A stretch of 64,000 nucleotides of DNA, from assembly GCA_050187355.1 (NCBI GenBank), contig JBFWXO010000005.1, positions 146,502 to 210,501 of the forward strand, in the 5' to 3' direction. Origin of the DNA: Vicinamibacterales bacterium (GTDB lineage Bacteria; Acidobacteriota; Vicinamibacteria; Vicinamibacterales; UBA2999). The stretch's first letter is position 1. Every line of letters starts with the position of its first letter. Positions 26,812 through 37,311 of the stretch are shown here, piece by piece. The notes beneath the pieces were generated by a model. The model ran no database searches. It worked only from the letters and a program-made list of their open reading frames with translations, and had not been told where the DNA came from. A program made the translations under genes and the position numbers.

Positions 26812-28967
26812 CACCGGCCCGGGCCGTCCACGAGCTCGACCTTCGTCATGACGTCGCCCTCGAGGACGCGGTCGGCCACGTCCATGCCGCGCTCGACGAC
26901 GGCGAACACGGTGTAGGCGTGATCGAGCCGGGGCGAGTCCACGAGGTTCACGAAGATCTGGGCGTCGCCGGTATCGCGGCCGCGCGTCGAGATGCCGACC
27001 GTGCCGCGCAGGTGCGCCACGCCGGGTTCGTCGCGCATGTACGGTCCGTCGCCCATGTACTCGTTGGCGCCGGGACTCCCGCCCTGCAGCACGAACGTCG
27101 GCTCCACGCGGTGGAACGTCAGGCCGTCGTAGTAGCCCTTGGACGCCAGCGCGGCCACGCGCGCCACCGTCGCCGGCGCCTCGTCGGCCAGCAGACGCAA
27201 CTCCATCACGCCGCCGCCCGCCATGGTGATGCGCAGGCGCTGGCCCGACGCCCGCTGCAGCATCTCCAGGTCGGGCCCGACCAGGCGGCGCGCGCGAGGG
27301 GTGGCCTGCCGCGGCTCCCCCGTCCACCGCTCGAGGGCCTTGGCGGCCTGGTCGGCCACGCGCGGTTCCGGATCGGTGAGGAAGCCCGAGATGGCCTCGA
27401 CGTCGGACCGGCTGCCCACGTCGGCGAGCGCGGTCAGGATCGCCACGCGGGGATCGCGCGAGGTGTCGCGCCCCTGGAGCGAGAGCCGCACCAGCGCGGT
27501 GACGAGCGCCTTGGCGGCCCTGGCCCGCTCGGGCTCCGCCGTGAGCGCCCGGGCGGCCGTCATGATGAGCTGATAGTCGTTGCGATCGAGCGCGGCGTAG
27601 GCCACCGCGAGGGCCTCGGGCCGCTGCAGCCGCGCGAGCTCGTCGAGGGCGGCGTTCCGGACGTTGTCCCGGTCGTCGGCGCCCAGGCGGGTCAGCGTGT
27701 CGATCGACGCCGCCTGACCGGCGGCCCGGGCGGCGTACATCCGGACCTGCCACGTGGGGTGGCCGGCGAAGCGCGGCAGCAGCGGGCGCGCCGCGTCGGG
27801 CGCCACCCTGGCCAGGCTGACGACGGCGTGCGCGGCCCGGTGCCAGGCACCGGCGGCCGGGGGCAGCGCCGACGCCTCCTTGCCGAGTGCGGCGGCCACG
27901 GGCGTGGCCGGGCCGCACCCGCCGCCGAGCAGATCGAGAGCCAGGAGCGCGACGTGCGGGCTGGGATCCTGGAGCGCCGCCAGGACCGGCTGACAGGTGC
28001 GCACCTGCAGGTGGCGCCCCCAGCCGCCGAGCGCCTCGTAGCGCACGCGGGGCTCGGGGTCCTTCAGCGCCGCCGCGAGGATGGCCTCGCGCACGTCGGC
28101 CGGCACGAGCGACGGCGCCTCGGCGGTCACGGCGGCACCGGCGGCACCCACCGCCAGGCGCCGCACCTCGTCGTCTGGGTCCCGGGCGGCGACTCGAAGG
28201 AGATCGCCGTCCACGGCGCGGGCGTTGCGCAGGGCCTGCAGCGCGAGGCGCCGGGCGCGCACGAGCGCCTGCGAGCCTGGCGCGTCGGGAGTCTCCACGA
28301 CCAGGGCCAGGCGCGCGCGTCCGTCGGCGCTCAGGGCGTGCACCTTGCCGCTCACTCTCGTGAGCGCCTCGAGACCGCGGGCCGCGCCCTCGGTCCTCAC
28401 GGCGGCGCCGGCGGCCGCCGCGCCGGCCGCGGGCACGGCGCGCCGGGGCGCGCGGACCACCTGGGGCGACGAGGCCGGCGCGGGCAGGCCCGTCAGGATC
28501 GCCTGCTCCACCTGGTGGAACTGGTCCTCGGTGACCACGGGGATCCGCCCGACCGACGCGGCGAACTCGGCCCAGTCGGCGGCCTCGGCGGCGGGCATCA
28601 CGCGGACGAGCGTCTCGAGGGCCTCCATGCCGAAGACGCGGGCGGAGCTGGCCGCGGCGATGGCCGCCCACCGGCGGACGTTGGCGTCCCGATCGGCCAG
28701 GAGCGGCAGGACGTCGAAGATGAGCGCCGGCGTCTCGAAGCGGCCGGCGGCCCGGACGGCCTGCGCGCGGACCTTCGGGTCGGGGCTCTTCATGCCCTCG
28801 ACGAAGAGTGCCTGCGTCTCGGGCGTGAGCTGCCGGGCATCCTCGGCCTGGAGGAGACGGACCTCGATGGGCTCCTGCGCGCGGCCGGCCGGCGCGGTCG
28901 CGGCCAGCGCGGCGGCGGTCAGCGCCACGTACGTACGAAGGCGGACGATCAGGGAGGCGCCGGACAT
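26811..28967 (-). CDS. Secreted HEAT-repeat protein fused to a C-terminal cyclophilin-type peptidyl-prolyl isomerase
   Basis: Signal peptide. Many HEAT-like repeats (DPKVRAQAVRAAG, DANVRRWAAIAAA, DPEPRVRYEALGG, DNVRNAALDELA...). The C-terminus has YYDGLTFHRVEPTFVLQGGSP...GTVGISTRGRDTGDAQIFVNL, which is a cyclophilin fold signature. Confidence 0.75.
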   Translation of the reverse strand: MSGASLIVRLRTYVALTAAALAATAPAGRAQEPIEVRLLQAEDARQLTPETQALFVEGMKSPDPKVRAQAVRAAGRFETPALIFDVLPLLADRDANVRRWAAIAAASSARVFGMEALETLVRVMPAAEAADWAEFAASVGRIPVVTEDQFHQVEQAILTGLPAPASSPQVVRAPRRAVPAAGAAAAGAAVRTEGAARGLEALTRVSGKVHALSADGRARLALVVETPDAPGSQALVRARRLALQALRNARAVDGDLLRVAARDPDDEVRRLAVGAAGAAVTAEAPSLVPADVREAILAAALKDPEPRVRYEALGGWGRHLQVRTCQPVLAALQDPSPHVALLALDLLGGGCGPATPVAAALGKEASALPPAAGAWHRAAHAVVSLARVAPDAARPLLPRFAGHPTWQVRMYAARAAGQAASIDTLTRLGADDRDNVRNAALDELARLQRPEALAVAYAALDRNDYQLIMTAARALTAEPERARAAKALVTALVRLSLQGRDTSRDPRVAILTALADVGSRSDVEAISGFLTDPEPRVADQAAKALERWTGEPRQATPRARRLVGPDLEMLQRASGQRLRITMAGGGVMELRLLADEAPATVARVAALASKGYYDGLTFHRVEPTFVLQGGSPGANEYMGDGPYMRDEPGVAHLRGTVGISTRGRDTGDAQIFVNLVDSPRLDHAYTVFAVVERGMDVADRVLEGDVMTKVELVDGPGR

Positions 28968-30193: not shown

Positions 30194-30564
30194 TGGGAGC
30201 CCCGGTCGTCCGCTGGCAGATCGTCTCGCCCCGCCCGGACGAGGTGGTCCGGTTCTACGGGGCGGTGTTCGGATGGGTGGAACGCCGCGACAACGCCCTG
30301 GGCTATCGGGCGCTTCAGACGGGCGGCGGCATCCAGGGCGGCGTCTGGCCGGCCCCCGCCGATGCCGCCACGTTCGTCCAGCTCTTCGTCGAGGTGGACG
30401 ATGTGGACGCCGCGATCGAGGCCGCGCTCGCCCACGGAGGCGCCGTGGTGGTGCCGCGGTCGGTCCTGCCGGACGGCGACGTGATGGCCATCCTGCGCGA
30501 CCCGCTGGGCACGAGCGTCGGCCTGGTCACTCCCGCTTCCCGGACCGCCGCGCCCAATAGCTGA
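30193..30564 (+). CDS. VOC (glyoxalase/bleomycin-resistance) family protein
   Basis: 123 aa. RWQIVSPRPDEVVRFYGAVFGW......VDDVDAAIEAALAHGGAVVVP.....GDVMAILRDPLG. The ATG at 30193 overlaps the previous stop. Confidence 0.7.
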   Translation: MGAPVVRWQIVSPRPDEVVRFYGAVFGWVERRDNALGYRALQTGGGIQGGVWPAPADAATFVQLFVEVDDVDAAIEAALAHGGAVVVPRSVLPDGDVMAILRDPLGTSVGLVTPASRTAAPNS

Positions 30565-30793
30565 ACTCGGGCTGGTAGCAGACCCCCTCCAGGTCGGTGA
30601 CGCGGTCCTGGAAGTAGCGCTGAGCATCGCCGATGGCGCGGTTGTAGACCACGGCCCCCACCTCGGCCAGGCAGAACTCCAGGAAGAGCGCCGCCTTGAG
30701 GTCGCCGATCTCCTCGTCGAGGTGCTCGGCGCAGAACTTCTTGATGGACGTGTGCAGCTGTCTGGTGACCTCGGGCGGGAGCGTGACGGGCAT
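30527..30793 (-). CDS. DUF2164-family small protein
   Basis: 88 aa. IKKFCAEHLDEEIGDLKAALFLEFCLAEVGAVVYNRAIGDAQRYFQDRVTDLEG is typical of DUF2164. Confidence 0.6.
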   Translation of the reverse strand: MPVTLPPEVTRQLHTSIKKFCAEHLDEEIGDLKAALFLEFCLAEVGAVVYNRAIGDAQRYFQDRVTDLEGVCYQPEFSYWARRSGKRE

Positions 30794-30853
30794 CCGTCAA
30801 TTGTGGCGCGGACGCGGGCCCGGACCGGACCCGGGGCCGCGGCCCGGCGGTCC

Positions 30854-31486
30854 ATGGCACACTGGCGGGCCGTGGCGCCCGTTATCCCGAACCCGGCCGC
30901 GATCCGCGCCTTCACGACCGGGCGCGCGTTCGAGGCGTGGCTCCGCGCGAACCACGCGCGGGCCGACGAGATCTGGCTCCGCCTCTACAAGAAGCACTCG
31001 GGCACGAAGAGCATCACGGCGGCCCAGGCGCTCGACGCGGCCCTGTGCTGGGGATGGATCGACGGTCTTCGCAAGGCGTGGGACGACACGTCGTTCCTGC
31101 AGCGCTACACGCCCCGGCGGCCGCGCAGCGTGTGGAGCCAGGTGAACCGTGACCACGTGGCGCGGCTGACGAAGGCCGGCCGCATGCAGCCGGCGGGCCT
31201 CCGGCAGGTGGACGCCGCCAAGGCCGATGGCCGCTGGGACGCGGCATACGCGCCCATCCGATCCGCCTCGCGGGAGGCGCTCCCCGAGGACCTGCGGGCG
31301 GCCATCGACGCCAACCCCCGCGCCCGGACGACGTTCGCGACCCTGAACCGCATGAACCTCTTCGCGCTCGCCTTCCGGACGGCGGCGATGCGGACGCCGG
31401 CCGGCCGCGCGCGCAAGATCGCGGCGCTCGTCGCGATGCTGGCGCGCGGGGAGACGATCGTCCCGGCGCGCTCGAAGACGCCGTAG
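30854..31486 (+). CDS. YdeI/OmpD-associated family protein
   Basis: FEAWLRANHARADEIWLRLYKK.SG..SIT..QALDAALCWGWIDG. The start was moved to the ATG at 30854. Confidence 0.65.
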   Translation: MAHWRAVAPVIPNPAAIRAFTTGRAFEAWLRANHARADEIWLRLYKKHSGTKSITAAQALDAALCWGWIDGLRKAWDDTSFLQRYTPRRPRSVWSQVNRDHVARLTKAGRMQPAGLRQVDAAKADGRWDAAYAPIRSASREALPEDLRAAIDANPRARTTFATLNRMNLFALAFRTAAMRTPAGRARKIAALVAMLARGETIVPARSKTP

Positions 31487-31497
31487 CGGCGCCGCCG

Positions 31498-32625
31498 ATG
31501 CCGCGAACGGCCAGGAACCCGCCGCCGATGACCACCGCCCGGACGACGTTCGTGCTCGTGATGGGGACGGGCTTCGCCAACGCGGCCAAGCGCCGCGCGG
31601 CCCGCCTGATCGGCGGCATGCTGGCCGACGCCGGCTTCGGCCTCGTCACCGGCAACTCGACCGGCGTGGACTACTGGGTGGCCCGGAGCTTCTGCGATGC
31701 GATCGCCGAACGCGGCGGGTCGCCGGAAGGCGCCGTCTGGCAGGTGTCCCTGGGCGCCAGCCGGATCCTGCGGCGAGGCGGGTGGCCCCTGCCGGGCTTC
31801 GCCGCCCCGCGTGCGTGCCGGGTGGCCGTCACCGATGTCGAGACCTGGAAGCGCGAGGCCGTGTCACGAGCCGACGCGGGCGTGATGGTGGGCGGCGGGC
31901 GCGGCGCGCTCGACATCGCGCGCCGCATGCTGGACCGCGGACGCCCCGTCTTCCCGCTGCCCTTCATGGGCGGGCTGACCGGCAACTCCGACGAGGTGTT
32001 CCAGGACATCCTCCGGACGTGGGAGGCGCACCCGGTGCCGGGCGTCAGCCGTTCGCAGTACCTGCGGCTGGCCGAGCCCTGGGTGAGCGGCACCGGCGAG
32101 CTCGCGAACCTGCTCCGGGGCACGCTGGCCGAGCGGCCCGACATCTTCGTGTCCTACCGGCGCAGCGACGCGCCGGCCGCCGCCGGGCGGATCGCGCACG
32201 AACTGGCCGAGCACTTCGGATCGCGGCGGGTGTTCTTCGACGTCAGCGGGATCGCGCCGAGCCACGCGTGGGACGAGACCATCAGGCAGGCGGTCGACGC
32301 GTGCGCCGTCGGCGTGGTCGTGATCGGACGGTCGTGGCTGGCACGGGGACCCGGCGGCGAACCTCCCCGGCTCCACCAGCCGAACGACGTCGTCCGGGGG
32401 GAGATCGAGGCGCTGATCGCCGGCAGGAAGGTGCTCTTCCCGGTCGTGGTGGAAGGCGCGAGGCTCCCCGACGCGGCCGACCTGCCGGAGTCGCTCGCGG
32501 CGCTGCCGCGCTTCCAGGCCGTCACGCCCGCCAACGGCGACTGGGACGTCACGATCGGGCTGCTCGTCCGCGAGATCGAGGCCGTCCTCCACCATCCGGA
32601 CCGGCATCGTCGCCCGCCGCCGTAA
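31498..32625 (+). CDS. Two-domain protein: an N-terminal SLOG-like (LOG/DprA-type Rossmannoid) domain fused to a C-terminal TIR-like domain
   Basis: N-terminal domain: FVLVMGTG..., GLVTGNSTGVD (nt 31639-31671) and VGGGRGALDIARRMLDRGRPVFPLP (nt 31888-). C-terminal domain: DIFVSYRRSD...RVFFD...VVVIGRSWL...NDVVRGEIEALIAGRKVLFPVVV, which follows the TIR pattern with a conserved Glu at nt 32401-32403. Confidence 0.6.
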   Translation: MPRTARNPPPMTTARTTFVLVMGTGFANAAKRRAARLIGGMLADAGFGLVTGNSTGVDYWVARSFCDAIAERGGSPEGAVWQVSLGASRILRRGGWPLPGFAAPRACRVAVTDVETWKREAVSRADAGVMVGGGRGALDIARRMLDRGRPVFPLPFMGGLTGNSDEVFQDILRTWEAHPVPGVSRSQYLRLAEPWVSGTGELANLLRGTLAERPDIFVSYRRSDAPAAAGRIAHELAEHFGSRRVFFDVSGIAPSHAWDETIRQAVDACAVGVVVIGRSWLARGPGGEPPRLHQPNDVVRGEIEALIAGRKVLFPVVVEGARLPDAADLPESLAALPRFQAVTPANGDWDVTIGLLVREIEAVLHHPDRHRRPPP

Positions 32626-32679
32626 TTGCTACGATGGCGCGGGTCGAGCGAGCCCGCCGCCAACCGCCCGGGGCCGCGC

Positions 32680-35600
32680 ATGAGCGCCATCTTCATCAGC
32701 CACAGCTCGAAAGACAGCGCGTTGGCGCGCGCCGTCGAGCAGCGTCTCAGCGGCCAGGACTTCCACTCGGTCTTCCTCGACCTCGATCCCGCGAAGGGCA
32801 TCGTCGGAGGCCAGAGCTGGGAGCGGACCCTTTACCGCAAGCTCCGGGCGTGCCGCGCCGTCATTGCGATCTGCACCGCCGAGTACCTGCGATCGCACTG
32901 GTGCTTCGCCGAAATCGCCCTGGCCAGGATGGAGGGCAAGCCCGTGATCGGCCTGCTGGCCGGTCCGCTGCCCGCCGACGCCGCGCTGCCGGCCATCCTG
33001 ACCGAGCGGCAGCTGATCGATCTGGGTCGCGGCGAGGACGACGCCTACGGGCGGCTCTGGCGCGCGCTCGAGGCGCTGGACCTCACCGGCGTCGCCACGA
33101 ACTGGAATCCGAAGGAGCCGCCGTATCTCGGGCTGAGCGCGTACCAGGAAGATCACGCGCCCGTGTTCTTCGGGCGTGAGGACGAAGCGCTCGCGGCCCT
33201 CGAACTGCTCGATCGGGGCGCCCCGCCGGTCGTGCTGGTGCTGGGGGCCTCGGGCAGCGGCAAGTCGTCCCTCGTCCGCGCCGGGGTGCTCCCGCGCCTG
33301 CGGGCCCGCGAGGACTGGCTGATCGTGGACCCGTTCCGGCCCGGCCGCGATCCCTGGGCGGAGCTGACCGAGTCGTTCGGCCGCGCCTTCGACCGCTACG
33401 CGCCCGATCACCTCGACGAGGCGGGTCGGCGACGCCAGTTGCGCGAGCGGCTGAGTGCCGCATGGACGCCTCCTGCCGCCGCCGAACCCGAGCCGGCACC
33501 GGACCCCGCCGGCGAGCGGGCCCCCGATGAGCGCCTGCGCCGCCTGATCGAGGTGCTGGAACGCGTGCGCCAGGACCCGCCGCCACTCACGCCGCGTGTA
33601 CGCAACTATCTCGAGTGGAGCCTCGACGACCTCCGCCGCCTGTCGGCTGGGCCGGCGCCGCCGGGCGAGACGATCGCCGCGCCCGGAACGACACCCCTCG
33701 TCGAGGCCGCGCTCGACCTGCGCCGCCTCTCGCGGCACCGCGACGCGCGAGTCCTCGTGGTCATCGACCAGTTCGAGGAGCTGCTCGGACGGGACGAGCC
33801 GGCCGTGCACGACTTCCTCGCGATGCTCCACGCATCGGTGGAGGCCGCACACAGTCCCGTGACGATCGTCGGCACGCTGCGGTCCGACTTCCTCGGGCTG
33901 TTCCAGCACCACCCCGCCCTCCACGGCGTGGACTTCGAGAGCCTGTCCCTGGGACCCATGCGGGCGGACGGCATGCGGCGCGTCGTCACGATGCCGGCGC
34001 GGCTCGCGGCCATCGAGATCGAGGACGGCCTCGTCGATCGTCTGCTGGCCGACACCGGCACGCCGGACGCGCTGCCGATGCTGTCTTTTACGTTGTCGGT
34101 GATGTGGCGGGATCGGCGCGGGGACGAGCCGCTCACGCTCGCCGCCTATGAGCGGCTCGGCGGCCTGCAGGGCACGATCGCGCGCGAGGCCGAGGCCGTG
34201 CTCGCCACGGCCGTCCGGGAACGGAAGGAGGACGCCCTCCGGCGGGCCCTGCTGCAGATGGCGCGGCTCGGTGACGACGGCACGTACGCGCGCCGGCCCG
34301 TGGACTGGGACCACGCCGACATCCAGCGCGTTCACGACCTGCTGACCACGTTGGTGGACCGCCGGGTGCTCGTCACGCGCTTGGACGGCGATCGCCGGAT
34401 CGTGGAGGTGGCGCACGAGGCGCTGTTCCGCGCCTGGACGCCGCTGCAGGCGTGGCTCACCAATGCGCGGTCCGAGCTGCTCCTGGCGCAGCAGATCGAG
34501 CGCGACGCCGCCGCCTGGCACGACGCCGGCCGGCCCGGCGATGTGTTGTGGCGGGGCGGCCGCCTGCTCCAGGCCCACGAGCTCCTGCGCGCCGACGACC
34601 GGCGCGCGGGTCGCGCGGACGCCCCGACCGCGTTCGTGCGCGCTGGCATGGCGAGACGCCGGTGGCAGCGCGTGCTCGTAACGGGTGCCGCCGTCAGCGT
34701 CCTGGCGGTGCTCGGCGCGTTCCTGGCGTTCGCCGTGATCCAGGCGGCGCGGGCCACGCGCGAACAGGTCCGGGCCCTCGACATCGCACGCGTGGCCGTC
34801 GCGGGCGAATGGCTTCCGCGCGACCCCACCAGCGCCGCCCTCGTGCTCCTGGAACTGCAGAACCCGACGGCCACGCGCTTCGCGCCCCGGCGACTCGGTG
34901 AGGCCCTGCGCCGCCCCCTCGTCCGCACCGAGCTTCGCCACGAGCACGCCGTCCACAGCGTCGCGCTCGACACGAACGGCACGCGCGTCGTCACGACGTC
35001 CGGGTCGTCGGCGACGGTGTGGGACGCCGTGACGGGGCGCGCGATCCGCGTCCTGGGCCACGACGAGGCCGTCGTGGCCGCGACGATCGACCCGACGGGC
35101 CGTCTGGTGGCGGTGCGGACGGGCACCGTGGGTGAGGAGTACTATCGCGACGCCGCGGGAACGGCGGTGCACGTCTGGGACCTGGACGCGGGCACCCGGC
35201 GGTTCAGCGTGACCCACGCCGACGCCGTCAACGGCGCAGCCTTCGCGCCAGACGGGCGCCTGGTGCTGACGTGGGGGAAGGACGGCACGGTGCAGCTGTG
35301 GGACGCGGAGGGCGGCGTGCGGCGTCGCACCTGGACGCAGGGGAACGACGTCAGGGACGCCACCTTCAATCCGGCGGGCACCCTCGTCGTGGCCGTGACC
35401 GCGGATGGCGCCCGGGTGTGGTCGGTGGACGCGGATCTCCCGATCGCCACGCTGCCAACCGACCGCCCGATCCAGACCGCGGCCTTCAACCCGGACGGCA
35501 CGCTCCTGGTGACGGCCGGCGACGGAGGCCTCGTAACGTGGGCCGTCGATGGCTGGACGCGGCAGCACCAGTTGGAAGCGCCCTTCACCAGACGCGTCGC

Positions 35601-37311
35601 GTTCAGCGCCGACGGCCGGCTGCTGCTCGGCGTGTCGTTCGACGAGGTCCGCGTCTGGGACGTCGCCGGTGGCGGCCCGCTGGTCCGCGATCCCATCGTC
35701 CACCGCGGACTCGTTGCGGCCGGCTTCACGGCGGATGGGTCGCTCGTCGTCACGGCCGACGGACACGAGGATCGGCGCGCCTACGGCTCGCCGCCAGCGG
35801 CGGGCGCCGTGCGCTTCTGGCGCGCGCGCTCCGGCGACCTCCTGGAGGAGCGCGTGCTGACCTTCGGGTCGGAGGTCATGCACGTGGCGTTCGGTCCGCG
35901 GATGGAGTCGGTCGCGATCACGTCCGCGCGGCGCGTCGGCAGCGGGCGCCCCGAGACGTTCGAGGAGGAGACCGTGGCGCGCCTGTGGGATCTCTCGCTC
36001 GGCGACCATCGGACGCTCTGGGGGGCGGAGCGGGCGGATCCGGTGACGACGGTGGCCTTCAGTCCGGACGGCCGACACGTCCTGAACGTCGCGGGCCGCA
36101 CCGCGTGGCTCTCCGACCCCGCAACCGGCGCGCCGACGGCCACGCTGCAGCACGACGCTGACATCCTGTCGGCTGTCTTCGACGCCGACGGCACGGTGGT
36201 CGTCACCGCCAGCCGCGACATGACGGCGCGCGTGTGGGACGTGGCAACCGGGCGCGAGCGCTTCCGTGCCCTGCACGACGACGCCGTCGAGCAGGCCCTC
36301 CTGGTGGCCGGCGACCGCTTTCTGGCCACGCGCACGTCGTCCACGGCGCGGCTCTGGACGCTCGCCTCCGGTGTGGCCGATCGGGGCTCGGCGCGGTTCG
36401 AGACGCCGGACGGCGGCGATCCCACGGGTCGGAACGACTGGCGGGACGACTTCAGCCCGGACGGCGGGCTGATGGCCCCGCGGCACGACCAGAGCGTCAC
36501 GATCGTCGACACGGCGACGGGCAAGGTCCTCCACACGCTGGTGCACGGCGGCTACGTCCGCTTCACCGCGTTTGCCGACGGCGGGCGGCTGCTCGTGACC
36601 GGCGGAGACGAGAAGGTCGCCCGCGTCTGGGACGTGGCCAGCGGCACCACCCGTTTCACGCTGGAGCACGGGGCGCAGCTCACCGATCTCGTCCTTGGTC
36701 CGGATGGGCGGACGATCCTGTCGGTGGACGAGAGCGGCACGGGCCACCTGTGGGACGGCACGACCGGCACTCACCTGGCGGGCCTGCCGCACGGATGCAG
36801 CGCGCGCGACGGATGGTTCGTGGCCGACGGGTCACTGGTCGTGACCCGATCCCTGGGCGGCGGAACCCTGGGGTGTGAGGCGAACGTGACGGTCTGGGAC
36901 GCGGCGACCGGGGCACGGCGGTCCTCGATGCCCGTCTCCGGCGACAGGCCAGTAGGATTCAACGGCGGCGGCACCGTGATGTGGGAGGCCATGCGGGAAG
37001 TGGAGGCGGCCCAGCGCGACGGAATTCGCACCTGGGATGTCGACACCGGCGAACCGCGCCTCAGCGAGCCCTACTGGACCGGCACGGACGTCCGGACCGC
37101 GGCGGCCAGCCCGGACGGCGCGCGCGTGGTGACGGCGGCGGGACCGGCGCTCACCATGTGGGCCACGGGCGGAGCGCTGCTTCAGGAGCGGCTGTCGGCC
37201 GTCACCACCGCGTGTCTGTCGCCCGAGTTCCGCCGCCAGAATCTCGGGGAGTCGGCGGATGCCGCCTCACGGGCCCACGACGCGTGCGAGCGCCGGCGAG
37301 GTCGCCGGTAG
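32680..37311 (+). CDS. TIR domain / STAND-type P-loop NTPase / single hydrophobic helix / multi-blade WD40 protein (1543 aa)
   Basis: TIR: MSAIFISHSSKDSALA...AVIAICTAEYLRSHWCFAEIALA (Glu at nt 32911-32913). Walker A GASGSGKSS (nt 33244-33267). Walker B-like VLVVIDQFEELL (nt 33751-33780). Hydrophobic helix at nt 34672-34740. About 14-17 WD40-like blades follow (recurrent ..H...V.......G..V.T...D.TARVWD...G), roughly nt 34930-37150. The start was moved from TTG 32626 to ATG 32680. Confidence 0.8.
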   Translation: MSAIFISHSSKDSALARAVEQRLSGQDFHSVFLDLDPAKGIVGGQSWERTLYRKLRACRAVIAICTAEYLRSHWCFAEIALARMEGKPVIGLLAGPLPADAALPAILTERQLIDLGRGEDDAYGRLWRALEALDLTGVATNWNPKEPPYLGLSAYQEDHAPVFFGREDEALAALELLDRGAPPVVLVLGASGSGKSSLVRAGVLPRLRAREDWLIVDPFRPGRDPWAELTESFGRAFDRYAPDHLDEAGRRRQLRERLSAAWTPPAAAEPEPAPDPAGERAPDERLRRLIEVLERVRQDPPPLTPRVRNYLEWSLDDLRRLSAGPAPPGETIAAPGTTPLVEAALDLRRLSRHRDARVLVVIDQFEELLGRDEPAVHDFLAMLHASVEAAHSPVTIVGTLRSDFLGLFQHHPALHGVDFESLSLGPMRADGMRRVVTMPARLAAIEIEDGLVDRLLADTGTPDALPMLSFTLSVMWRDRRGDEPLTLAAYERLGGLQGTIAREAEAVLATAVRERKEDALRRALLQMARLGDDGTYARRPVDWDHADIQRVHDLLTTLVDRRVLVTRLDGDRRIVEVAHEALFRAWTPLQAWLTNARSELLLAQQIERDAAAWHDAGRPGDVLWRGGRLLQAHELLRADDRRAGRADAPTAFVRAGMARRRWQRVLVTGAAVSVLAVLGAFLAFAVIQAARATREQVRALDIARVAVAGEWLPRDPTSAALVLLELQNPTATRFAPRRLGEALRRPLVRTELRHEHAVHSVALDTNGTRVVTTSGSSATVWDAVTGRAIRVLGHDEAVVAATIDPTGRLVAVRTGTVGEEYYRDAAGTAVHVWDLDAGTRRFSVTHADAVNGAAFAPDGRLVLTWGKDGTVQLWDAEGGVRRRTWTQGNDVRDATFNPAGTLVVAVTADGARVWSVDADLPIATLPTDRPIQTAAFNPDGTLLVTAGDGGLVTWAVDGWTRQHQLEAPFTRRVAFSADGRLLLGVSFDEVRVWDVAGGGPLVRDPIVHRGLVAAGFTADGSLVVTADGHEDRRAYGSPPAAGAVRFWRARSGDLLEERVLTFGSEVMHVAFGPRMESVAITSARRVGSGRPETFEEETVARLWDLSLGDHRTLWGAERADPVTTVAFSPDGRHVLNVAGRTAWLSDPATGAPTATLQHDADILSAVFDADGTVVVTASRDMTARVWDVATGRERFRALHDDAVEQALLVAGDRFLATRTSSTARLWTLASGVADRGSARFETPDGGDPTGRNDWRDDFSPDGGLMAPRHDQSVTIVDTATGKVLHTLVHGGYVRFTAFADGGRLLVTGGDEKVARVWDVASGTTRFTLEHGAQLTDLVLGPDGRTILSVDESGTGHLWDGTTGTHLAGLPHGCSARDGWFVADGSLVVTRSLGGGTLGCEANVTVWDAATGARRSSMPVSGDRPVGFNGGGTVMWEAMREVEAAQRDGIRTWDVDTGEPRLSEPYWTGTDVRTAAASPDGARVVTAAGPALTMWATGGALLQERLSAVTTACLSPEFRRQNLGESADAASRAHDACERRRGRR
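34672..34740 (+). other. Predicted transmembrane helix inside the TIR-STAND-WD40 ORF
   Basis: VLVTGAAVSVLAVLGAFLAFAVI, flanked by RRRWQR upstream and QAARATRE downstream. Confidence 0.5.

What the first reader, a model, noticed from the sequence alone, without database searches (positions are those of the whole stretch)
31498..32625. Fusion of a SLOG-like ligand-binding or nucleotide-processing domain directly to a TIR domain
Seen in the sequence: residues ~15-190 show the strand-Gly-rich-loop pattern of the SMF/DprA-LOG (SLOG) superfamily. The three elements are FVLVMGTG, GLVTGNSTGVD at nt 31639-31671, and VGGGRGALDIARRMLDRGRPVFPLP at nt 31888 onward. Residues ~215-362 look like a TIR_2-type domain.

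Established knowledge: in Thoeris type I the SLOG domain is fused to SIR2 or TM effectors and is activated by the TIR product.

Inference: here the putative sensor would be fused to the same enzyme class that makes the signal. That allows either feed-forward amplification or self-regulation of a TIR NADase. LOG-type domains can also be nucleotide-processing enzymes (phosphoribohydrolases), so the N-terminal domain might instead modify a TIR-derived nucleotide.
Basis: partly seen in the sequence, partly recalled or inferred. Interest (0 to 1): 0.7.

Follow-up and report, generated by a model that had tools for sequence, protein, structure and literature searches.

The report
SLOG sensor fused to TIR NADase
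This gene really does encode a nucleotide-binding SLOG domain fused to a SARM1-like TIR NAD-cleaving domain, but the fusion is a widespread, already catalogued (though biochemically untested) type of bacterial conflict protein and not a new kind of system.

Summary
ORF 31498-32625 (+), probably starting at nt 31528 (365 aa), encodes an N-terminal SLOG-fold domain, a conserved helical connector and a C-terminal TIR domain. The AF2 model is confident (pLDDT 91.5). The N-domain matches LOG, DprA, Moco-carrier and ThsA-SLOG structures. The TIR superposes on SARM1 TIR (TM 0.84-0.88), and its catalytic Glu (E302) is invariant.

The fusion is not fortuitous: there are more than 100 full-length homologue clusters in several phyla. 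It is also not new. The N-domain belongs to Pfam LDcluster4, and about half of 68 diverse LDcluster4 proteins carry TIR. [quoted passage not shown]

LOG's catalytic Arg and Glu align to W117 and I140, so a LOG-type enzyme is unlikely. The cyclase-linked aromatic of the TIR WxxxE motif is Val, so making its own cADPR-isomer signal is unlikely.

Best reading: a ligand-gated NAD+-depleting effector, with SLOG as sensor and TIR as hydrolase. The gene usually stands alone. The adjacent TIR-nSTAND1-WD40 gene in this window is not a conserved partner.

Verdict: new member of a known kind; modest interest.

The parts
31528..32625 (+). SLOG-TIR gene (365 aa from the annotated start M11; the longest ORF starts at 31498 and gives 375 aa; residue numbers in this report use the 375-aa frame)
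31549..32016 (+). N-terminal SLOG-fold domain (residues 18-173), LDcluster4-type
   Evidence: Pfam LDcluster4 borderline on the single sequence. 58 of 68 relatives of the domain hit LDcluster4, best E 6.5e-13. AF2 plus Foldseek match LOG, DprA, MCP and ThsA-SLOG.
31639..31671 (+). GLVTGNSTGVD: strand 2 plus Gly loop. It ends in G56-V57-D58, which fits the GxD/E substrate-binding signature of the YpsA-like SLOG clade.
   Evidence: G52 and G56 in 43/43, D58 in 42/43; GxD/E motif described
31846..31848 (+). W117, at the position of LOG's catalytic Arg (MHxRK)
   Evidence: hhalign against a genuine LOG; W in 41/43
31888..31926 (+). VGGGRGALDIARR: strand, Gly loop and helix, the counterpart of LOG's PGGxGTxxE. 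I140 (nt 31915-31917) replaces the catalytic Glu.
32017..32133 (+). Conserved helical connector (residues 174-212, consensus WxxxPVPGLSRxQFLRLAEPWVSGTGxLxNLLRGTL) with no Pfam coverage; a possible coupling element between sensor and effector
   Evidence: V180, G182, P194, L202 and L205 are invariant and W175, P179, P181, R185, Q187, L189, L191, W195, G198, T199 and G200 are nearly invariant; helices 164-173, 185-192 and 200-210
32134..32592 (+). C-terminal TIR domain (residues 213-365), SARM1-like
32401..32403 (+). E302, at the catalytic-Glu position of TIR NADases; it aligns with the Glu of SARM1 'WVHKEI'
   Evidence: E in 43/43; alignment
32389..32391 (+). V298, at the position of the Trp in the TIR WxxxE motif
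   Evidence: V31, I5, F3, Y2, E1, P1 among 43 sequences; link between an aromatic residue here and cyclisation
32680..37311 (+). Adjacent gene, 54 bp downstream with no terminator in between: TIR_2 - nSTAND1 NTPase - one TM helix (residues 665-687) - WD40 propellers, 1543 aa. Its TIR keeps the WxxxE motif (W74, E78). It is a possible signal-maker in this genome but not a conserved partner of the family.

Best explanation
The gene encodes a self-contained, ligand-gated NAD+-consuming effector.

The N-terminal LDcluster4-type SLOG domain is a non-catalytic receptor for a small nucleotide-derived ligand, most plausibly an ADP-ribose-type molecule. Ligand binding is passed through the conserved helical connector and/or drives self-association. 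TIR domains then pair up to form composite active sites, and E302 catalyses hydrolysis of NAD+ to ADP-ribose and nicotinamide. The result is NAD+ depletion and growth arrest, or abortive infection.

The ligand is not made by this protein's own TIR. It would come in trans: from other nucleotide-generating immune sensors (in this window possibly the adjacent TIR-nSTAND1-WD40 protein), or from infection or stress metabolism in the many genomes where the gene stands alone.

Shown: the two folds, the conserved pocket glycines and GxD motif, the conserved catalytic Glu, the absence of LOG catalytic residues, the absence of the cyclase aromatic, the wide distribution, and the lack of a fixed partner.

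Inferred: ligand binding, the identity of the ligand, activation by oligomerisation, NADase activity, and the immune role.
For: 1. Folds and catalytic Glu. E302 is present in 43/43 sequences, and the FxSYRR motif shared with SARM1 is conserved (F217, S219, Y220, R222 in 43/43).

2. Nearest solved sequence relative of the N-domain profile: the 3'cADPR-sensing SLOG of SeThsA (7uxt_B, E 4.8e-4; identity of the entry). BcThsA-SLOG bound to 3'cADPR also superposes (TMq 0.62-0.63).

3. LOG's catalytic Arg and Glu are replaced by W117 and I140. This points to a binder, not a hydrolase.

4. The same SLOG module is combined with interchangeable effector-type domains: TIR in either order, SEFIR, and CHAT protease. 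This is the pattern seen in known sensor-effector fusions.

5. The WxxxE position is aliphatic, whereas all cyclase TIRs have an aromatic residue there. This fits a hydrolase effector, not a signal maker.

6. In about 45 genomic contexts no neighbour family recurs in more than 5 of 36 loci. Identity is 60-70% between Acidobacteriota and Betaproteobacteria. Both fit an autonomous, horizontally moving single-gene cassette.
Against: There is no biochemical evidence for any LDcluster4 protein, and I could not read the 2015 paper that defined the family.

By fold, the N-domain is no closer to ThsA than to LOG or Moco-carrier protein.

The Glu that binds the distal ribose of 3'cADPR in ThsA (E403) tentatively aligns to position 166, which is variable in this family. 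The ligand or the binding mode must therefore differ.

LDcluster4 also occurs N-terminal to WD40 and FGE-sulfatase domains (P0134, P0193). Those are positions usually held by effectors or signal generators, not sensors.

For most family members no signal-producing partner is identifiable. Most loci are not obvious defence islands.

A minority of family members carry F or Y at the WxxxE position (5/43).
Confidence: 0.5

Rival explanations
1. Two-gene Thoeris-like cascade specific to this locus. The downstream TIR-nSTAND1-TM-WD40 protein senses an invader through its propellers, oligomerises, and its WxxxE-type TIR makes an ADPR-derived second messenger. That messenger binds the SLOG domain of the upstream protein and switches on its TIR NADase.
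For: The genes lie on the same strand, 54 bp apart, with no terminator-like site between them. The neighbour's TIR keeps the cyclase-linked Trp (W74xxxE78), whereas the SLOG-TIR has Val. A second TIR gene lies within 10 kb in 8 of 36 loci and is directly adjacent in L010 and L019. Five of those neighbouring TIRs show WxxxE. nSTAND1 relatives occur next to the gene in L024 and L012.
Against: The pairing is not conserved. Only the window plus 2 of 35 other loci have a STAND neighbour. The nearest relatives of the window protein (70-71% identity) are solo. L017-L019 are related genomes and count as one event. Clustering of TIR genes may only reflect defence islands. PADLOC recognises no Thoeris effector here.
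Confidence: 0.2
2. The SLOG domain is an enzyme, not a sensor. It cleaves or modifies a nucleotide, for example the ADPR produced by the fused TIR, to make or destroy a signal or toxic metabolite. The protein would then be a two-step nucleotide-processing machine.
For: The SLOG superfamily includes true N-glycosidases (LOG), and the Foldseek hits include AMP-bound LOGs. The literature predicts that SLOGs in conflict systems act either as sensors or as nucleotide-processing enzymes. LDcluster4 occupies effector-like N-terminal positions ahead of WD40 or FGE-sulfatase domains, and occurs as six tandem copies in P0115.
Against: LOG's catalytic Arg and Glu align to W117 and I140, both conserved hydrophobic residues. 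The only near-invariant acidic residue in the pocket motifs is D58, in the GxD motif described as substrate-binding. D139 and E166 vary.
Confidence: 0.15
3. Self-amplifying or self-regulating NADase. The TIR's own product binds the fused SLOG domain and further activates or inhibits the enzyme.
For: The architecture places a putative ADPR-type receptor and an NAD+-cleaving domain in one chain. No external signal maker is conserved. ADPR itself, the expected hydrolysis product, could be the ligand.
Against: The TIR lacks the aromatic residue found in all cyclase TIRs, so ThsA-type ligands (cADPR isomers) are unlikely products. Unconditional positive feedback on NAD+ destruction would be lethal without a separate trigger, and none is evident.
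Confidence: 0.1
4. Not an immune protein. It is a housekeeping or stress-linked regulator of NAD+/nucleotide pools, or a dormancy switch, that senses a metabolic nucleotide.
For: Most loci lie among ordinary metabolic genes, not in defence islands. No full-length copies were found on phages or plasmids in the collections searched. SARM1, the closest TIR, is itself gated by a metabolite (text).
Against: The distribution is patchy and crosses phyla with high identity. Some copies lie near TA modules and other TIR or STAND genes. The domain's other partners (CHAT, SEFIR, STAND) are typical of conflict systems.
Confidence: 0.1

Closest known systems
LDcluster4 (Pfam PF18306) SLOG domains fused to TIR: the 'SLOG-TIR' conflict systems of Burroughs et al. 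2015
   Same: Same domain family and same architecture. PF18306+PF13676 is precomputed on many homologues. 58 of 68 relatives of the N-domain hit LDcluster4 and about half carry TIR_2 or TIR.
   Different: This is one particular, tightly conserved subfamily, always in the order SLOG-connector-TIR. It has a family-specific connector and a non-aromatic WxxxE position. More distant LDcluster4-TIR proteins keep the Trp or have the reverse order, TIR-SLOG. No member has been studied experimentally as far as the searchable literature shows.
ThsA, the effector of type I Thoeris (SIR2 + STALD-type SLOG)
   Same: A SLOG domain joined to an NAD+-degrading domain. ThsA-SLOG is the best solved sequence relative of the N-domain profile and superposes at TMq 0.62-0.63. 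Its logic is ligand-activated NAD+ depletion.
   Different: The effector is TIR, not SIR2. The SLOG clade is LDcluster4, not STALD. There is no conserved ThsB partner. The position tentatively matching ThsA's ligand-binding E403 is variable. PADLOC finds no ThsA match.
SARM1 TIR domain (animal NAD+ hydrolase)
   Same: Closest solved TIR by sequence (E 2.4e-5) and by fold (TM 0.84-0.88). It shares the FxSYRR motif and the catalytic Glu. SARM1's TIR is also controlled by a separate ligand-sensing domain in the same chain (text).
   Different: SARM1 uses ARM and SAM domains, not SLOG. SARM1 has Trp at the WxxxE position (W638), whereas this protein has Val.
Cap17 and TPALS-family SLOG effectors of CBASS ('TIR- and PNP-associating SLOG')
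   Same: An N-terminal SLOG-family domain fused to a metabolite-degrading effector. There are weak hits to Cap17-like_N (E 1e-3) and to a PADLOC PN-superfamily effector model (E 1.2e-4).
   Different: The scores are below threshold (18.8 bits against 26.6). No CD-NTase or other cyclase appears in any neighbourhood examined.
LOG cytokinin-activating phosphoribohydrolases
   Same: Same fold and equivalent Gly-rich loops. They are the top Foldseek hits (1ydh_B E 1.5e-7, TMq 0.60).
   Different: The catalytic Arg (MHxRK) and Glu (PGGxGTxxE) are replaced by W117 and I140.
TIR-SAVED and TIR-STING CBASS effectors (from my own knowledge, not tested here)
   Same: A single chain combining a nucleotide sensor with a TIR NADase that is switched on by ligand-induced oligomerisation. 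This is the mechanism proposed here.
   Different: The sensor folds are unrelated, and those proteins are encoded in operons with a cyclase that makes the ligand.

Membership tests
SLOG (SMF/DprA-LOG) superfamily | Rossmannoid alpha/beta fold matching LOG, DprA and related structures | tested here: met
   With the N-domain model (pLDDT 88.2), all 50 top PDB matches are SLOG-superfamily proteins, E down to 1.5e-7 and TM about 0.55-0.73. The full-length model gives the same result.
SLOG (SMF/DprA-LOG) superfamily | Gly-rich nucleotide-binding loops at the C-terminal ends of the core strands | tested here: met
   The motifs at residues 23-25, 52-56 and 132-136 follow strands 18-23, 48-51 and 127-131. 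The glycines are invariant or nearly so.
Pfam LDcluster4 (PF18306) | Score at or above the Pfam gathering threshold (26.3 bits) | tested here: inconclusive
   The window protein scores 26.0 bits, E 7.9e-6, and only residues 18-66 align. At family level, 58 of 68 proteins found with the N-domain profile match LDcluster4 (best E 6.5e-13), and PF18306 is precomputed on many close homologues.
TIR-domain NAD+ hydrolases | TIR fold | tested here: met
   TIR_2 at 45.6 bits against a cutoff of 28; SARM1 TIR TM 0.84-0.88, rmsd 2.0-2.5 A.
TIR-domain NAD+ hydrolases | Catalytic glutamate in the alphaC helix | tested here: met
   E302 aligns with the Glu of SARM1 'WVHKEI' and is present in 43/43 sequences.
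TIR-domain NAD+ hydrolases | Measured NADase activity | not testable with these tools
   Needs an enzyme assay.
cADPR-isomer-producing (cyclase) TIRs such as ThsB and AbTir | Aromatic residue (usually Trp) four residues before the catalytic Glu (WxxxE) | tested here: not met
   V298 in the window protein; V31, I5, F3, Y2, E1, P1 in the family.
Type I Thoeris (ThsA + ThsB) | Effector with a SIR2 NADase domain joined to a STALD-type SLOG domain | tested here: not met
   There is no SIR2 domain. Pfam assigns LDcluster4, not STALD. PADLOC matches only ThsB-type TIR models, weakly (E 0.007).
Type I Thoeris (ThsA + ThsB) | Conserved adjacent ThsB (TIR) gene | tested here: not met
   A second TIR gene lies within 10 kb in 8 of 36 loci and is adjacent in 3. 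No neighbour family recurs in more than 5 of 36 loci.
Type I Thoeris (ThsA + ThsB) | 3'cADPR pocket residues of ThsA-SLOG (G289, S290, L326, Q359, R371, K388, G399, E403) | tested here: inconclusive
   Only part of the pocket could be mapped through the HMM alignment to SeThsA. The GGxSxE segment aligns, but the E403-equivalent position 166 is variable. No coordinate superposition was possible.
LOG phosphoribohydrolases | Catalytic Arg (MHxRK) and catalytic Glu of PGGxGTxxE | tested here: not met
   hhalign against a genuine LOG from L066 places W117 and I140 at these positions. W is present in 41/43 and I/L/M/V in 43/43.
CBASS TPALS / Cap17-like effectors | TPALS-type SLOG domain above threshold, and an operon with a CD-NTase | tested here: not met
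   Cap17-like_N scores 18.8 bits against a cutoff of 26.6. No nucleotidyltransferase appears in the annotated neighbourhoods.

The most novel reading that the evidence does not exclude
The protein is an autonomous, single-chain immune or stress switch, a bacterial functional analogue of SARM1. Its LDcluster4 SLOG domain would directly sense an infection- or stress-derived nucleotide without any dedicated signal synthase. In this particular genome it may additionally listen to a messenger made by the adjacent NLR-like TIR-nSTAND1-WD40 protein. The ligand would be a nucleotide signal distinct from the known Thoeris messengers, because the ThsA ribose-binding Glu is not conserved.
Probability: 0.2. 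Interest if true: 0.6.

Novelty: new member of a known kind. Interest (0 to 1): 0.3.

Why it matters
TIR and SLOG domains are central parts of NAD+-based immunity from bacteria to animals. This subfamily is compact (about 365 aa), highly conserved and models confidently. It appears to work without a fixed partner. That makes it a convenient entry point for two questions: what LDcluster4 SLOG domains bind, and how a SLOG receptor gates a SARM1-like TIR.

If the ligand proved to be a new nucleotide messenger, or a direct infection cue, that would extend the list of TIR-pathway signals. As it stands, the finding adds a well-defined but uncharacterised member to an architecture predicted computationally in 2015. 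It does not reveal a new kind of system.

Tried and rejected
- I tried twice to read Burroughs et al. 2015 (PMC4678834 and its DOI). The paper is not held, so the original description of LDcluster4 contexts could not be checked. I relied on later papers that cite it.
- A literature search for 'type III Thoeris / ThcA / ThcB' returned only cannabinoid papers. The weak NCBIfam ThcB4 hit (25.5 bits against a cutoff of 220) is only generic TIR similarity.
- I considered a conserved operon with the downstream TIR-nSTAND1-WD40 gene. Rejected: STAND relatives occur in only 2 of 35 other loci, and close homologues are solo.
- I considered a CBASS or Pycsar-type effector. Rejected: no cyclase appears in any neighbourhood.
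- I considered a LOG-type enzyme. Rejected on catalytic residues.
- I considered carriage on mobile elements. No full-length matches were found in the phage or plasmid collections, and the viral structure library gave only generic SLOG proteins.
The E403 to position 166 equivalence is therefore tentative.
- Rfam and tRNA scans of the window found nothing.
Full report
**1. What is there**

The window is about 73% G+C, so long spurious ORFs occur in every frame. The ORF at 31498..32625 (+) is nevertheless a real gene. An identical protein is annotated in a Vicinamibacterales MAG as a 'toll/interleukin-1 receptor domain-containing protein' (P0001, 365 aa). Independent gene calls on a matching contig start at M11, which is nt 31528.

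**2. Domain check**

Pfam finds TIR_2 at residues 216-325 (E 1.2e-11). It also finds a borderline LDcluster4 ('SLOG cluster4 family') match at residues 18-66 (26.0 bits against a cutoff of 26.3), and a weak Cap17-like_N match. PADLOC and NCBIfam give only weak, generic TIR and Rossmann hits.

An AlphaFold2 model built on 43 homologues is confident (pLDDT 91.5, pTM 0.88).

- Against the PDB, the C-terminal half superposes on the SARM1 TIR domain (TM 0.84-0.88, rmsd 2.0-2.5 A). The N-terminal half matches LOG, DprA, Moco-carrier protein and TT1465.
- When the N-domain is modelled alone (pLDDT 88.2), all 50 best PDB matches are SLOG-superfamily structures. They include the B. cereus ThsA SLOG domain bound to 3'cADPR (7uxs, TMq 0.62-0.63) and the SLOG domain of TRPM channels.
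- The three glycine motifs lie at strand ends and the following loops. They are invariant or nearly so.

**3. Distribution**

A search of the 5.8-billion-protein collection gave 114 clusters. Nearly all are full length at 40-79% identity. A scan of species-representative genomes gave 33 loci matching all or nearly all of the protein (L003-L035; three are cut by contig ends). Most are in Rhodocyclales and Burkholderiales (Accumulibacter, Thauera, Zoogloea, Piscinibacter), with others in Methylomirabilis, Devosia and Binatia. Identity of 60-70% between an acidobacterial protein and betaproteobacterial proteins points to horizontal spread.

**4. Neighbourhood**

I called ORFs in 36 loci and clustered them. 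Apart from the gene itself and its shadow ORFs, no neighbour family recurs in more than 5 loci. Pfam-annotated contexts are unrelated to one another. They include fatty-acid oxidation genes, nitrate reductase and sulfate transport, peptidases, an MFS transporter, and in some cases a ParDE or HigB toxin-antitoxin pair.

In the window, the gene is followed after 54 bp by a 1543-aa gene, with no terminator-like site between them. That gene encodes TIR_2, an nSTAND1 NTPase, one transmembrane helix and WD40 propellers. The flanks are housekeeping genes.

STAND relatives neighbour the gene only in L024 and L012. A second TIR gene lies within 10 kb in 8 of 36 loci:

- the window;
- L010, with an adjacent solo TIR;
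- L012;
- L017, L018 and L019, with a TIR-multi-TM paralogue (adjacent in L019);
- L024;
- L035.

This looks higher than I would expect for a rare domain, although I measured no baseline. It is far from a fixed partnership, and L017-L019 are related genomes.

**5. Which SLOG, and sensor or enzyme?**

A profile of the N-domain (alignment A2) finds, among solved structures, the SLOG domain of S. equi ThsA as its best sequence match (7uxt_B, E 4.8e-4). TT1465, LOG and DprA follow. 7UXT is SeThsA according to Manik et al..

Against 1.84 billion representative proteins, the same profile finds 676 proteins at E <= 1e-3. Of 68 of these that I scanned, 58 match LDcluster4 (best E 6.5e-13), 33 match TIR_2, 7 TIR, 6 SEFIR, 7 pYEATS, 4 CHAT and 4 FGE-sulfatase.

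Individual architectures include:

- TIR-SLOG (the reverse order);
- SLOG-CHAT-AAA_5/nSTAND3;
- protein kinase-SLOG;
- iSTAND-SLOG;
- SLOG-WD40;
- SLOG-FGE-sulfatase;
- a 2057-aa protein with six SLOG-profile matches, a TIR domain and an FGE-sulfatase domain.

So the N-domain is a mobile LDcluster4 module, and TIR is its commonest partner.

An hhalign comparison with a genuine LOG gene (found in L066) places W117 at LOG's catalytic Arg and I140 at the catalytic Glu of PGGxGTxxE. Both positions are conserved and hydrophobic in the family. The near-invariant G56-x-D58 fits the GxD/E substrate-binding signature described for the YpsA-like SLOG clade.

These points favour a ligand-binding role, not a catalytic one. 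However, the Glu that holds the distal ribose of 3'cADPR in ThsA (E403) tentatively aligns to position 166, which is variable. The ligand need not be 3'cADPR.

**6. What kind of TIR?**

The TIR shares the FxSYRR motif with SARM1, and E302 aligns with SARM1's catalytic Glu.

Manik et al. report that an aromatic residue four positions before the catalytic Glu (WxxxE) is present in all cyclase TIRs. They also report that mutating it in AbTir cuts 2'cADPR output from 93% to 24%. In the window protein this residue is V298. Across the family it is V or I in 36 of 43 and aromatic in 5.

More distant LDcluster4-TIR proteins keep the Trp, and so do five of the neighbouring TIR genes, including the window's downstream gene, 'HWCFAE'. 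This TIR therefore looks like a plain NAD+ hydrolase, that is, an effector and not a signal maker.

**7. Mechanism**

The best-supported model is a ligand-gated NADase.

- The SLOG domain binds a nucleotide-derived ligand.
- The strongly conserved connector (residues 174-212) and/or ligand-induced self-association couple binding to assembly of TIR active sites.
- NAD+ is then hydrolysed.

The steps from ligand binding onward are inferred by analogy. The analogues are ThsA and, from my own knowledge, TIR-SAVED and TIR-STING.

The rivals are:

- a locus-specific Thoeris-like cascade with the downstream NLR-like TIR protein as signal maker;
- an enzymatic SLOG domain;
- product feedback on the protein's own SLOG domain;
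- a non-immune metabolic role.

**8. Comparison and novelty**

[quoted passage not shown] 2015. That work predicted SLOG domains in such systems to be either sensors or nucleotide-processing enzymes. Pfam already models LDcluster4, and the PF18306+PF13676 architecture is precomputed on these proteins.

I found no experimental study of an LDcluster4-TIR protein in the searchable library. I could not read the 2015 paper itself.

The finding is therefore a new, well-delimited member of a known, computationally predicted kind. What this analysis adds:

- evidence against LOG-type catalysis;
- evidence against cyclase-type TIR chemistry;
- the conserved connector;
- the demonstration that the gene is usually a stand-alone cassette.

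**9. Verdict**

Novelty: new member of a known kind. Interest: about 0.3.

Noticed in passing
window 32680-37311 (+): The downstream 1543-aa protein is TIR_2 - nSTAND1 NTPase - WD40 propellers. A single predicted transmembrane helix (residues 665-687, VLVTGAAVSVLAVLGAFLAFAVI) lies between the NTPase and the propellers. This would put the sensor repeats on the other side of the membrane from the TIR and NTPase. Its TIR keeps the WxxxE motif (W74, E78).
   Followed up: partly
L017 986-2002, L018 1003-2265, L019 8746-9921 (all +): Three Rhodocyclales/Zoogloeaceae genomes carry a second gene whose TIR domain is a close paralogue of the SLOG-TIR's TIR (E about 1e-43 with the family TIR profile). 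It has the WxxxE Trp and a C-terminal multi-pass hydrophobic region in place of a SLOG domain. It is adjacent to the SLOG-TIR gene in L019 and about 8 kb away in L017 and L018.
   Followed up: partly
L010 9300-9854 (-) and 4529-8116 (+): A 184-aa stand-alone TIR protein with WxxxE is encoded divergently, right next to the SLOG-TIR gene. A 1195-aa protein with an N-terminal TIR lies just beyond it, making a three-TIR cluster.
   Followed up: no
L024 1022-4093 (+) and 6300-9287 (-): Two large STAND-type proteins lie upstream of the SLOG-TIR gene. One has an N-terminal TIR and one is an nSTAND1 relative. Their C-terminal ends are closely similar to each other (both finish '...IGFRVCGSSPI'); they may be FGE-sulfatase-like, but I did not scan them.
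   Followed up: no
protein P0115 (2057 aa): A giant protein has six separate matches to the N-domain profile (tandem SLOG domains hitting LDcluster4, STALD, LD_cluster3, LSDAT_prok and Cap17-like_N), followed by a TIR_2 domain and an FGE-sulfatase domain.
   Followed up: partly
proteins P0127, P0140, P0155, P0131: The same LDcluster4 module is fused to a CHAT protease plus AAA_5/nSTAND3 ATPase, to a Ser/Thr protein kinase, and to prokaryotic YEATS domains. The SLOG-CHAT arrangement resembles that of the SAVED-CHAT proteases mentioned.
   Followed up: no
protein P0007 (421 aa; sequence); L013 and L015 also encode 414-421-aa forms: P0007 carries a roughly 40-residue tandem duplication of the conserved connector segment (…WEGHQVPGVSRAQFLQLAQPW… followed by …WDGHPVPGVKRGQFLQLGEPW…), so this element tolerates duplication. 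Whether the longer L013 and L015 forms carry the same duplication was not checked.
   Followed up: no
window 30722-31486 (+) and 30527-30793 (-): Directly upstream on the same strand is a YdeI/OmdA-family gene that ends 41 bp before the annotated SLOG-TIR start. A DUF2164 gene lies on the opposite strand. Neither recurs next to homologues elsewhere.
   Followed up: partly
window 32629-36792 (-) and many others: At 73% G+C the ORF list is full of very long spurious ORFs, for example a 1387-aa ORF antisense to the STAND gene and 800-1100-aa ORFs overlapping real genes. ORF length alone is not evidence of coding in this window.
   Followed up: yes
Rhizobium phaseoli plasmids NZ_CP013578.1 and NZ_CP013572.1, about 28387-28791: The SLOG half alone matches (33% identity) plasmid genes annotated as 'SAV_2336 N-terminal domain-related protein'. 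NCBI therefore names what may be a related N-terminal module after a Streptomyces protein.
   Followed up: no
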